A stretch of DNA of 64,000 bases, from NCBI RefSeq assembly GCF_009914755.1, contig NC_060942.1; one strand, 5' to 3'. The notes beneath the pieces are model-generated. The model was not told the DNA's origin. It saw only the letters and a program-made list of their open reading frames with translations, and did no database searches. The position numbers were made by a program, and so were the translations under genes. Positions 26,063 through 29,559 of the stretch are shown in pieces. Source of the DNA: the human T2T-CHM13v2.0 reference genome, Homo sapiens. How positions within the stretch are numbered: position 1 is the stretch's first letter; each line of letters starts with the position of its first letter.

Positions 26063-27733
26063 GAAAAGAAAAACAAATAAATTTTTTAAAAAGAAAAAGA
26101 GATGGCATGATATCTGGAATTGTTTCACAAGAATTCAGGGAGTAGGAAGAGATACAGAGTGGCCATTATTGCTAAGTTCTGGAGGAGGGTGATGGGTACA
26201 TCAATTAATTATGCTATTTGATTTCTGAAGCTTTGATAATTTCCATGATTTTTTTTAAAAAGGTCACTCTGGCTGTTGTGTGCAATATGGCTTGTAAACG
26301 TGGGCAAAAGAAATGCAGGGAGGCTAATTACAAAGAGATGGCAATAGTGCAGGTAAAGGATACTGGTGGTTTGGACTAGAAAGTCAGTAGTAAAATGGAG
26401 ATCATTTTTAACATAGAGAGAAATATGTGACTTTTTTTTTTTTTTTTTTTTTGAGACAGAGTTTCCCTCTGTTGCCCAGGCTGGAGTGCAGTGGCACCAT
26501 CTCAGCTCACTGCAAGCTCTGCCTCCCGGGTTCATGCTATTCTCCTGCCTCAGCCTCCTGAGTAGCTGGGACTACAGGCGCCCACCATCACGCCCGGCTA
26601 ATTTTTTGTATTTGTTTTTTTTTTTTTAGTAGAGATGGGGTTTCACTGTGTTAGCCAGGATGGTCTCGATCTCCTGACCTCGTGATCTGCCCGCCTGGGC
26701 CTCCCAAAGTGTTGGGATTACAGGTGTGAGCCACCGTGCCCGGCCTTGTATGTGGCTTTAAGATTTATTTTGGAGGAAGATTTATAGAGCTGCTGATGGG
26801 GAACCTGGGGCTGGTGATACATTACTTCTTTAGTGGGGAAAAAACTTTTTAAAACATTAACCAAAAAATTAATACTCAGTTTAGTTTTTCTGCCTAGCAC
26901 ATAGGAAAATGCCTTATAGAGGTCTGCCAATTCTGTGTTATTTTCATTCTACCTACAGGGCACTTTGGAGAAATTATTTCTTTAGGCAGAGAGAAAGACA
27001 ACACTATGATTTCTTTCATAGAATTCTGCCCTAATACCAAAAATAAATTCTGAACTCCTGCCAACTAGATGAAATTCCAGAAGAGAGACCTCATTTCTGG
27101 ATTTGATGTCTAAAATGCCTGGCACACAGTAAGAATTCAATAAAATGCTTTTGAACTAAATGAAATAGCCTCCTAGATGGAATCTAGATGGGTTCCACCA
27201 CCAGTTAAAAAATACACTATCTCTCTTACCAACCACAACAAAATAAAGTGAAAAACAGGAATGATGTAATATTTAAAAGTTTGCATGACACAGATTTGTC
27301 CCTTAATGGGAAAATTTAATAAAGATGCCAATTCTCCTTAAATTAATTTACATAGAATGTAATTTCAATTAAATCCCAATGAAGAGCCTCAGAAAATTAT
27401 TTTAAATGCCTTCTGGAAGAATAAACAGATAAGGATGTCAAAGAAAATCCTTAAAAATGGTAAGGGGAAATCTCACATATTAAAACATTATAACCATTAA
27501 AAGTGCAATACTATCTTAAAAACTTTTTTTTAATGCGATACTGTCGAAAGAAGAGACAGATGAGTGAATAAAAAACAATAAAAAATACAAAAAGAGACTG
27601 GGCACCATGGCTCATGCCTGTAATCCCAGCACTTTGGGAGGCTGAGGTGGGTGGATCGCTTGATGCCAGCAGTTCGAGACCAGCCCAGCCAACATGATGA
27701 AATCCCATTTCTACTAAAAATACAAAAATTAGC

Positions 27734-28952
27734 AGAGACGGGGTTTCACCATCTTGGCCAGGCTGGTCTTGAACTCCTGACCTCGTGATCCACCCACCTC
27801 AGCCTCCCAAAGTGCTGGGAATACAGGCGTGAGCCACCACACCCAGCCAGGGTGAGGCTTTTTCTTTTTTTTTTTTTTTTTTTTTTATTATACTCTAAGT
27901 TTTAGGGTACATGTGCACATTGTGCAGGTTAGTTACATATGTATACATGTGCCATGCTGGTGCGCTGCACCCACTAATGTGTCATCTAGCATTAGGTATA
28001 TCTCCCAATGCTATCCCTCCCCCCTCCCCCGACCCCACCACAGTCCCCAGAGTGTGATATTCCCCTTCCTGTGTCCATGTGATCTCATTGTTCAATTCCC
28101 ACCTATGAGTGAGAATATGCGGTGTTTGGTTTTTTGTTCTTGCGATAGTTTACTGAGAATGATGGTTTCCAATTTCATCCATGTCCCTACAAAGGATATG
28201 AACTCATCATTTTTTATGGCTGCATAGTATTCCATGGTGTATATGTGCCACATTTTCTTAATCCAGTCTATCATTGTTGGGCATTTGGGTTGGTTCCAAG
28301 TCTTTGCTATTGTGAATAGTGCCGCAATAAACATACGTGTGCATGTGTCTTTATAGCAGCATGATTTATACTCATTTGGGTAAAAAAAAAAAAAAAAATT
28401 AGCCAGGAGTGGTGGTGAGCACTTGTAATCCCAGCTACTCAGGAGGCTGAGGCAGAGAACTGCTTGAACCCGGGAGGCGGAGGTTGCAGTGAGCTGAGAT
28501 CACGCCATTGCACTCCAGCCTGGGTGACAGAGTGAGACTCCGTCTCAAAAAAAAAAAAGCTTCACCCTGCCTTTTGAATCCCAGAGAACCTGTTCTGGGC
28601 CAACAATGCACCACCAGGCTTTCCCAAGTGCACCAAACATAGTTTTGAATAGTTTTCCTTGGGCAAAGCTCCTCTTTCCTTTTGAACTTCAGCCAGAGGG
28701 CCCTCACAGGCAGAAGACTAAATTTCAGATGCTTCTGTCTTGCCCTCTCCCTCCCTCTCAATAAATTTTCTGAAAAAGTTAAAAAAAAAAAAAAAAAAAA
28801 AAAAAATTATATCAAATAGATAAACTACATGCATACACATAAAACAATTCCCTCACCCATAGATAACTCACGTGTATACATTGGTGCGTATTTCCAGACT
28901 CCCAATAAAAACATGAATATGAATATAAAAAAAAAAAAAAAAAAAAAAAAAA
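27734..28952 (+). mobile_element. Complex L1HS (Ta-1) insertion: 5'-truncated, 5'-inverted, with two serial 3' transductions
   Basis: TSD AAAAATTAGC at 27724-27733 and 28953-28962; terminal poly(A) 28927-28957; inverted block 27734-28382; internal poly(A) 28781-28806; AATAAA at 28760 and 28904. Confidence 0.88.
27865..28382 (-). mobile_element. L1HS Ta-1 3' end (ORF2 C-terminus, 3'UTR, poly(A)); the L1 part of the inverted block
   Basis: Minus strand reads GATGAC-ACA-TTAGTGGG (Ta ACA), CTTAGAGTATAAT (Ta G) and CCCAAATGAGTAT (Ta-1 T/G pair); ORF 28092..28334 ends LIGGN*. Confidence 0.93.
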
Positions 28953-29559
28953 AAAAATTAGCCAGGTGCGGTGGCGCATGCCTGTAGTCCCAGCTACTCA
29001 GGAGGCTGAGGTGGGAGCATTGCTTGAATCTTAGAGGTAGAGGTTGCAGTGAGCCGAGATCACACCACTGCACTCCATCCTGGGCGACAGAGCGAGACTC
29101 TGTCTATTAAAAAAAAAAAAAAAAAAGAGGCCAGGTGCAGTGGCTCATGCCTGTTATCCCAGCACTTTCAGAGGCCGAGGCAGGCAGATCAAGAGATCAA
29201 GAGATCGAGACCATCCTGGCCAACATGGTGAAACCCTGTCTCTACTAAAAATACAAAAATTAGCTGGGCATGGTAGCGCGCACCTGTAATCCCAGCCACG
29301 CGGGAGGCTGAGGCAGGAGAATCGCTTGAAGCCAGGAGGTGGACGTTGCAATGAGCCGAGATTGCGCCACTGCACTCCAGCCTGGGTGACAGAGCGAGAC
29401 TCAGTATCGAAACAAAAAAAAGAAAGAAAGAAAGAAAAGGAATTCTTAGAATGTATAAGAAAGGCATGACAAAATAATGGAAAAGGAAAGATTACTTGAT
29501 AAAGGGTATAAACGTAAGGGATGGACAAGTTGAGACTCCCACATCCTAACACACACTCT

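What the first reader, a model, noticed from the sequence alone, without database searches (positions are those of the whole stretch)
27724..28962. Young L1HS Ta-1 insertion recording three successive jumps: two serial 3' transductions, three poly(A) tails and a twin-priming inversion
Seen: a 10-bp TSD (AAAAATTAGC, 27724-27733 and 28953-28962) brackets ~1.2 kb inside a host Alu linker. Flipping 27734-28382 rebuilds one colinear RNA: L1 3' end (Ta ACA, Ta G, Ta-1 T/G); A22; GAAAAAGCCTCACCCT; a complete foreign Alu (left arm in the inverted block, right arm at 28399-28558); AAAAAGCTTCACCCT; ~210 nt of unique DNA with AATAAA at 28760; A26; 120 nt of unique DNA with AATAAA at 28904; A31. The foreign Alu's own TSD (AAAAAGC[C/T]TCACCCT) appears once in each orientation, strong internal evidence for the inversion. 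The inversion junctions show microhomology: target TTAGC pairs with GCTAA in the RNA, and TA is shared at 28381-28382. Established: L1 3' transduction and twin priming. Inference: a source L1 at locus A produced a daughter at locus B, which produced this copy, so the two tags identify a recently active L1 lineage.
Basis: partly seen in the sequence, partly recalled or inferred. Interest (0 to 1): 0.88.

Follow-up and report, generated by a model that had tools for sequence, protein, structure and literature searches.

The report
Polymorphic L1 insertion with two transductions
A 1.2-kb piece of a young human jumping gene (L1) sits inside an Alu repeat in an OSBPL1A intron and carries DNA picked up on chromosomes X and 7, which records three successive jumps; the mechanisms are well known and the insertion is already catalogued as a common human variant.

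Summary
A 10-bp target-site duplication brackets a 1,219-bp insert that splits one host Alu. Reverse-complementing 27734-28382 and joining it to 28383-28952 gives one colinear RNA: 496 nt of L1 3' end, A22, 529 nt of chrX, A26, 120 nt of chr7, A26-31.

Both tags map at 100% to single, different donor loci in the same genome: T2T chrX:117,230,617-117,231,156 and chr7:139,181,289-139,181,408. Each starts at an A-rich endonuclease-type site and ends 15-20 nt after AATAAA. The chrX Alu is split between the inverted and direct blocks, and exactly 11 nt are lost, which is the twin-priming signature.

Neither donor site holds an L1 in CHM13, so both progenitors are absent from this genome. The insertion is polymorphic: a 1,229-bp deletion at chr18:24,517,730 is listed in a 1,019-genome long-read study (Fst 0.24 AFR, 0.31 EAS).

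The two junction microhomologies are not supported by the donor sequence, and the transduced Alu is not complete.

Verdict: a real, clean, well-supported example of known mechanisms, and a new member of a known kind. Interest is modest.

The parts
27596..27733 (+). Host Alu, left arm and linker, up to the insertion point
   Evidence: It rejoins with 28963-29126 into a 302-nt Alu that is colinear with the neighbouring Alu.
27724..27733 (.). 5' copy of the target-site duplication AAAAATTAGC. The first nick on the bottom strand reads TTTTT/G.
27734..27848 (-). Inverted block: left arm (115 nt) of the chrX Alu, the first part of transduction 1
   Evidence: Together with the next 16 nt it forms a 131-nt exact match to L001 (chrX).
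27849..27864 (-). Inverted block: GAAAAAGCCTCACCCT, the chrX flank that directly follows the predicted source-L1 site. It includes the Alu's own 5' flanking repeat.
27865..27886 (-). Inverted block: first poly(A) tail (A22, read as T22), the tail of the source L1 at chrX
27887..28382 (-). Inverted block: L1HS Ta-1 3' end, 496 nt (about positions 5527-6022), covering the ORF2 C-terminus and the 3' UTR
   Evidence: 39 of 39 other scored copies differ by one mismatch; 5 of 5 examined differ at the same position. Searches give the subfamily diagnostics.
28281..28281 (-). Single difference from the majority of L1HS copies: T>C on the L1 sense strand, at about L1 position 5628. It is synonymous (TGT to TGC).
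28383..28568 (+). Direct block: A16 linker run, right arm and A12 tail of the chrX Alu, and its 3' flanking repeat (continuation of transduction 1)
   Evidence: It is part of a 398-nt exact match to L001. On the donor, 11 nt (ACTAAAAATAC) lie between this match and the inverted 131-nt match.
28569..28780 (+). Direct block: unique chrX sequence (212 nt) with AATAAA at 28760-28765. The end of transduction 1 lies 15 nt after the hexamer.
   Evidence: 100% to chrX:117230945-117231156, the only other hit..
28781..28806 (+). Second poly(A) tail (A26), the tail of the intermediate L1 at chr7
28807..28926 (+). Transduction 2: 120 nt from chr7 (minus strand) with AATAAA at 28904-28909
   Evidence: 100% to chr7:139181289-139181408..
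28927..28952 (+). Third poly(A) tail. It makes an A31 run together with the 5 A of the TSD. Up to 3 of its A could be templated by chr7.
28953..28962 (.). 3' copy of the target-site duplication AAAAATTAGC
28963..29126 (+). Host Alu, right arm and tail

Best explanation
This is a 5'-truncated L1HS Ta-1 insertion made by target-primed reverse transcription into the linker of an Alu in an OSBPL1A intron.

**Origin of the template RNA (inferred)**
1. A Ta-1 L1 inserted on chrX just 5' of T2T 117,230,617 (+ strand).
2. Its transcript read through to an AATAAA 540 nt downstream.
3. That RNA inserted on chr7 next to T2T 139,181,408 (minus strand).
4. The chr7 copy's transcript read through a further 120 nt to another AATAAA.

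**Integration at chr18 (inferred)**
1. The bottom strand was nicked at TTTTT/G, and first-strand cDNA was primed on the last poly(A).
2. The top-strand 3' end (...TTAGC) primed a second cDNA inside the transduced Alu. That cDNA ran back through the first poly(A) into the L1, as far as about position 5527.
3. Joining the two cDNAs left the 5' 649 nt inverted and lost 11 nt at the joint.

**Shown versus inferred**
- Shown: the structure, the donor mapping and the polymorphism.
- Inferred: that full-length L1s once sat at the two donor sites, and the order of priming events.
For: 1. TSD, poly(A) tail and a T-rich nick site are all present at chr18.
2. 131 nt plus 398 nt match chrX exactly and 120 nt match chr7 exactly. 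That is 0 mismatches in 649 nt.
3. Each tag has only one 100% donor in the genome. The chr6 hit is a 79% old repeat that extends 260 nt beyond the tag.
4. Each tag begins at an A-rich site: chrX ...CCTAAA|GAAAAAGCC and chr7 ...CTCAAAAA|TTATATC. Each ends 15-20 nt after AATAAA with U-rich sequence downstream, and each is followed by a long untemplated A run.
5. The inverted and direct blocks are adjacent on the donor, separated by 11 nt, within a single TSD pair. The review PMC4859970 (passages read) lists small indels at inversion breakpoints and serial 3' transductions as known hallmarks.
6. A 1,229-bp deletion allele at chr18:24,517,730 is listed in Supplementary Table 13 of PMC12350158. Its size equals the insert plus one TSD, so the exact empty site exists in people.
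Against: - No L1 lies within 1.2-1.5 kb of either donor site in CHM13. The defining source elements are therefore not seen, only predicted.
- I could not find filled alleles in print. Table 19 and the non-'solo' rows of Table 18 of PMC12350158 lie beyond the stored cut.
- Pairing of the second primer with the RNA is weak: 4 nt plus a terminal mismatch.
- Microhomology at the cDNA-cDNA joint is 0-1 nt.
Confidence: 0.9

Rival explanations
1. This was a single retrotransposition event with template switching. Reverse transcription began on a polyadenylated chr7 transcript, jumped to the poly(A) tail of a chrX transcript, and then jumped to the poly(A) tail of an L1 RNA. On this reading no L1 ever sat at chrX or chr7.
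For: - Both donor sites are empty in CHM13.
- Both switch points abut A runs that could give microhomology with a poly(A) tail.
- L1 chimeras made by template switching are documented (PMC13174262, passages read).
Against: - In documented chimeras the non-L1 RNA lies 5' of the L1 part. Here it lies 3' of it.
- Two long internal poly(A) tracts (22 and 26 nt) sit exactly after AATAAA-directed ends. This is the stated hallmark of 3' transduction (PMC4859970).
- The model needs two switches plus twin priming in a single event.
- Empty donors are expected for polymorphic source L1s, and the chr18 copy is itself polymorphic.
Confidence: 0.05
2. A simple, uninverted insertion came first, and a later rearrangement inverted it. 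Alternatively, two independent insertions landed side by side.
For: Alu sequences are plentiful here and could mediate rearrangement.
Against: - There is only one TSD pair, and it flanks the whole 1,219 bp.
- The two halves of one donor Alu are split between the blocks with an 11-nt gap, so both blocks come from one RNA.
- The host Alu and the transduced Alu would have been in direct orientation, which cannot produce an inversion by recombination.
- The catalogued alternative allele is the exact empty site of 1,229 bp.
Confidence: 0.03
3. The structure is an assembly artefact in CHM13.
For: None found.
Against: An independent long-read cohort and pangenome graph carry a bubble of exactly this size at exactly this place.
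Confidence: 0.01

Closest known systems
L1 3' transduction, including serial transductions used to trace lineages (review PMC4859970; the AC002980, LRE3 and RP lineages cited in PMC4866827; the 11q21 family in PMC6425141)
   Same: - An internal poly(A) is followed by unique DNA from another locus. That DNA ends after a downstream AATAAA and carries its own poly(A).
- Two such units in series record the order of the source loci.
   Different: - It belongs to none of the three classic lineages. Their published tag oligos have 0 matches in the window at up to 2-3 mismatches.
- It lacks the 11q21 tag.
- Both source loci are empty in the genome that carries the daughter copy.
Twin priming 5' inversion of L1 insertions (Ostertag and Kazazian 2001; the paper is not held, and I know it only as cited)
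   Same: - An inverted 5' block and a direct 3' block lie within one TSD pair.
- There is a small deletion (11 nt) at the inversion point.
   Different: - The internal priming site lies in transduced, non-L1 sequence (an Alu linker).
- As a result the whole L1 part, its poly(A) and part of the first tag are inverted relative to the terminal tail.
- An annotator would therefore see an antisense L1HS fragment with a T-tail beside Alu pieces.
The 11q21 L1 transduction family (PMC6425141, Table 3 and sections 6-7 read)
   Same: The L1 fragment shares a rare variant, C at about position 5628. In CHM13 this variant is carried by 10 other Ta-1 copies, and 7 of those bear the 11q21 tag or are the progenitor locus itself.
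   Different: - All 10 of those copies also carry T at a CpG near position 5945. This copy has C there, as do 5 of 5 majority copies.
- This copy has no 11q21 tag.
- Kinship is therefore possible, as a sister branch, but it is not shown.

Membership tests
L1 insertion made by target-primed reverse transcription | Target-site duplication flanking the insert | tested here: met
   A 10-bp exact repeat at 27724-27733 and 28953-28962.
L1 insertion made by target-primed reverse transcription | Terminal poly(A) and a T-rich endonuclease-type nick site | tested here: met
   An A26-31 tail. The bottom strand reads TTTTT/G at the left edge of the TSD. The consensus motif is recalled, and is also cited.
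L1HS Ta-1 subfamily | ACA at 5929-5931, with T and G at 5535 and 5538 (rule in the Methods of PMC12350158) | tested here: met
   ACA at fragment positions 403-405. T at position 9 and G at position 12, which are 394 and 391 nt upstream of ACA, as the rule requires.
L1 3' transduction (each of the two tags) | The sequence after an internal poly(A) maps uniquely to another locus | tested here: met
   chrX at 100% (529 nt in two pieces) and chr7 at 100% (120 nt).
L1 3' transduction (each of the two tags) | The tag ends shortly after a downstream polyadenylation signal and carries its own poly(A) | tested here: met
   AATAAA lies 15 nt and 17-20 nt before the tag ends. A26 and A26-31 follow, and neither is templated at the donors.
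L1 3' transduction (each of the two tags) | A source L1 lies immediately upstream of the tag at the donor locus | tested here: not met
   Both donor sites are empty in CHM13, with no L1 within 1.2-1.5 kb. Only this one genome could be searched. A polymorphic source would give the same result, so this lowers certainty but does not exclude membership.
Twin priming inversion | The inverted 5' block and direct 3' block are adjacent on the template, with a small indel, inside one TSD pair | tested here: met
   On the chrX donor the two blocks are separated by exactly 11 nt.
Twin priming inversion | Complementarity between the top-strand 3' end and the internal priming site | tested here: inconclusive
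   TTAG pairs with CUAA, but the terminal C is mismatched. A 4-nt match is not above chance.
AC002980, LRE3 and RP transduction lineages | Lineage-specific tag sequence (oligos printed in PMC4866827) | tested here: not met
   0 matches in the window for each of the 3 tags at up to 2-3 mismatches.
11q21 (hg19 chr11:95.17 Mb) transduction family | Shared 3' tag and shared internal variants | tested here: not met
   There is no 11q21 tag after the L1. This copy shares 1 of the 2 variants that all 10 CHM13 Ta-1 copies bearing the C share (7 of them in that family) within the 496-nt fragment.

The most novel reading that the evidence does not exclude
The chr18 copy may be the only trace in CHM13 of a still-segregating Ta-1 sub-lineage (chrX:117.23 Mb, then chr7:139.18 Mb, then chr18) whose two full-length progenitors are not yet described as source elements. 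On this reading the sub-lineage branched from the ancestor of the known 11q21 transduction family, after that ancestor gained C at about position 5628 and before it gained T at about position 5945.
Probability: 0.3. Interest if true: 0.5.

Novelty: new member of a known kind. Interest (0 to 1): 0.35.

Why it matters
- **A worked pedigree.** The insertion gives a three-generation L1 pedigree with exact coordinates for two predicted source sites, both absent from the T2T reference. Long-read cohorts can genotype those sites directly.
- **A hard case for annotation.** The whole L1 part is antisense to the terminal poly(A), and the L1 3' junction reads into chrX sequence. Methods that map only the L1 3' junction could place a phantom L1 at chrX.
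- **A side effect in the gene.** The insertion creates a roughly 125-bp inverted Alu hairpin inside an OSBPL1A intron, on an allele that differs in frequency between continental groups.
- **No new mechanism.** All the processes involved are already established.

Tried and rejected
**Closed or unavailable**
- Four papers were not held: Macfarlane 2013, Szak 2003 (tried by DOI and by PMC id) and Ostertag and Kazazian 2001.

**Literature searches that found nothing on this insertion**
- 'Ta-1, Ta-0, 5536, 5539': 0 papers.
- 'OSBPL1A, L1HS': 0 papers.
- 'Xq24, 7q33, transduction, source L1, LINE-1': 0 papers.
- 'OSBPL1A' with four mobile-element terms, any 3 of the 5 required: 548 papers met that threshold; none of the 15 listed contains OSBPL1A.
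- I therefore found no printed description of this insertion's anatomy. These searches cover main texts only.

**Supplement searches**
- Cytoband names Xq23, Xq24, 7q33, 7q34 and 18q11.2 gave no hits in the stored part of the PMC12350158 supplement, and the four Xq and 7q names gave none in that of PMC7058536.
- Number prefixes for the chrX and chr7 donor coordinates gave no hits in the stored part of the PMC12350158 supplement.
- Both stored files are cut at about 4 million characters.
- In PMC12350158 the stored rows of Table 18 are all of the 'solo' class and stop within the chr2 insertions.
- I therefore cannot say whether that study classed this variant as an L1 with transductions, or whether it lists L1s at the two donor sites.

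**Other leads**
- Hoyt et al. (bioRxiv 2021.07.12.451456, passages read) catalogued 183 high-confidence L1 3' transductions in CHM13.
- The L1 variant at 28281 is not a unique lineage marker. It occurs in 110 places in the genome, mostly in older L1 copies: 88 of the 99 I examined lack ACA.
- The chr6 hit to tag 2 is an old repeat, not a donor.
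Full report
**What is in the sequence**

The window is T2T-CHM13 chr18:24,490,001-24,554,000. A host Alu in an OSBPL1A intron is interrupted in its A-rich linker. 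AAAAATTAGC occurs at 27724-27733 and again at 28953-28962. The 1,219 bp between the two copies is the insert.

Removing the insert and one repeat copy rejoins the flanks into a 302-nt Alu. That Alu aligns colinearly with the neighbouring Alu (positions 13-301, 79.6%). The bottom strand at the left edge of the duplication reads TTTTT/G, a usual kind of L1 endonuclease site. That consensus is recalled, and it is also cited in PMC13174262.

**Anatomy of the insert**

On the plus strand the insert has two blocks.

The inverted block, 27734-28382, reads on the minus strand as:
- 496 nt of L1 3' end (27887-28382);
- A22;
- GAAAAAGCCTCACCCT;
- the left arm of an Alu.

The direct block, 28383-28952, reads as:
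- A16;
- an Alu right arm with its A12 tail, then AAAAAGCTTCACCCT;
- 212 nt of unique DNA with AATAAA at 28760-28765;
- A26;
- 120 nt of unique DNA with AATAAA at 28904-28909;
- a terminal A run of 31, which includes the 5 A of the duplication.

**The L1 part**

- Among the 40 copies scored of 2,220 candidates, the 39 other than this copy itself each differ by one mismatch.
- In 5 of 5 copies examined, that mismatch is the same position, window 28281.
- The change is T>C on the L1 sense strand and is synonymous (TGT to TGC).
- The Methods of PMC12350158 define Ta by ACA at 5929-5931. They define Ta-1 by T and G at 5535 and 5538.
- The fragment has ACA at positions 403-405, and T and G at positions 9 and 12, which are the required offsets. 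The Ta-1 call therefore holds.

**Where the two tags come from**

Searches of the window's own assembly gave these results.

*Tag 1*
- It is 100% identical to chrX:117,230,945-117,231,156, with no other hit.
- On chrX the same Alu, with the same flanking repeat, lies immediately upstream.
- The inverted 131 nt and the direct 398 nt are both exact matches to chrX. They are separated there by exactly ACTAAAAATAC.

*Tag 2*
- It is 100% identical to chr7:139,181,289-139,181,408 on the minus strand.
- An 83% hit on chr6 belongs to an old repeat. That repeat is shared over 366 nt at 79% and runs well past the tag.

*Both tags*
- In all, 649 transduced nucleotides show no mismatch to their donors.
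- Each tag begins at an A-rich site: chrX CCTAAA|GAAAAAGCC and chr7 CTCAAAAA|TTATATC.
- Each ends 15-20 nt after AATAAA, with U-rich sequence downstream at the donor.
- Each is followed in the window by a long A run that the donor does not template.

**Mechanism**

The structure is what two serial 3' transductions followed by a twin-primed integration would give.

The review PMC4859970 (passages read) states three relevant points:
- a transduction shows two homopolymer stretches;
- serial transductions are known and are used to trace element history;
- small indels mark 5' inversion breakpoints.

Here the internal priming site lies in the transduced Alu linker, not in the L1 body. The whole L1 part and its tail are therefore inverted.

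The 11-nt gap is close to the 10-nt length of the top-strand overhang. That would fit the first cDNA stopping where the second primer sat on the RNA. This is my inference.

- The RNA at the priming site reads ACTAA. The target end therefore pairs over TTAG only, with a terminal mismatch.
- The donor has C before the A16 run, so the claimed shared TA at 28381-28382 is not there.
- The transduced Alu lacks 11 nt.

These points rest.

**Source elements**

Neither donor locus holds an L1 in CHM13. Within 1.2-1.5 kb on each side there are only chance 11-12-nt matches. This is the one defining feature of transduction that is not met here.

A polymorphic source would give the same result, and only this genome could be searched.

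The main rival is template switching between three RNAs in one event. It explains the empty donors. However, it puts the non-L1 RNAs on the wrong side of the L1 compared with documented chimeras. It also needs two switches plus twin priming. I give it about 5%.

**Population status**

- Supplementary Table 13 of PMC12350158 lists chr18-24517730-DEL, 1,229 bp, in CHM13 coordinates.
- Its Fst is 0.243 for AFR and 0.311 for EAS, each against the remaining samples.
- 1,229 bp equals the insert plus one repeat copy, so the precise empty allele segregates in people.
- The direction of the frequency difference is not given in what I could read.
- The stored supplement is cut. The visible rows of Table 18 are all 'solo' elements, and Table 19 is not visible. 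I cannot say how that study classed this variant, or whether it lists L1s at the donor sites.

**Relation to known lineages**

- The published tags of the AC002980, LRE3 and RP lineages (PMC4866827) are absent from the window.
- The C at 28281 occurs in 110 places in the genome.
- I examined the 99 other listed places; 10 further places were not listed and were not examined. Of the 99, 11 have ACA, and 10 of those are Ta-1 copies at 493/496 identity or better.
- 7 of these 10 carry the 3' tag of the 11q21 family described in PMC6425141 (sections 6 and 7 read). They include what appears to be the progenitor locus and the chr3 donor. I matched these by chromosome, approximate position and the printed TSDs.
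- 3 of the 10 carry no such tag.
- All 10 also have T at a CpG about 317 nt downstream. This copy has C there, as do 5 of 5 majority copies.
- The chr18 copy thus has an intermediate haplotype. It could be a sister branch of that family, or the shared C could be a coincidence.

**Verdict**

It is a clean, young, polymorphic example of known processes. The variant itself is already in a public catalogue, though I found no printed account of its anatomy. Novelty: a new member of a known kind. Interest: 0.35.

Noticed in passing
window 27596-27848: The host Alu left arm and the inverted transduced Alu left arm abut and form an inverted repeat. As RNA in the sense of OSBPL1A, it folds into a hairpin of about 125 bp with an 11-nt loop (free energy -203 kcal/mol, z = -19.8 against 200 shuffles). 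Only the insertion allele has this hairpin. Possible effects on RNA editing, splicing or DNA stability were not tested.
   Followed up: partly
L027 (G000 chr3:38,595,654-38,596,890): CHM13 carries a Ta-1 L1 with the 11q21 tag followed by GAATGAGTAAATAATG. This matches the TSD printed for the 'donor L1' at hg19 chr3:38,626,082, which PMC6425141 reports as absent from the reference genome.
   Followed up: partly
L015 (G000 chr1:126.6 Mb) and L110 (G000 chrX:75.63 Mb): Two further Ta-1 copies in CHM13 carry the 11q21-type 3' tag. Their places do not obviously correspond to any of the 14 family members in Table 3 of PMC6425141. I did not convert coordinates between assemblies, so this is unconfirmed.
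   Followed up: no
L044 (chr5:40.29 Mb), L050 (chr5:145.48 Mb), L063 (chr7:49.84 Mb): Three Ta-1 copies share both internal variants of the 11q21 family (C near position 5628 and T near position 5945) but have no 11q21 tag. They are candidates for family members made without read-through.
   Followed up: no
L004 (chr7 donor) and L005 (chr6:19.34 Mb): The chr7 region that supplied tag 2 is part of an old interspersed repeat. It shares this repeat with chr6 at 79% identity over 366 nt. I did not identify the repeat family.
   Followed up: partly
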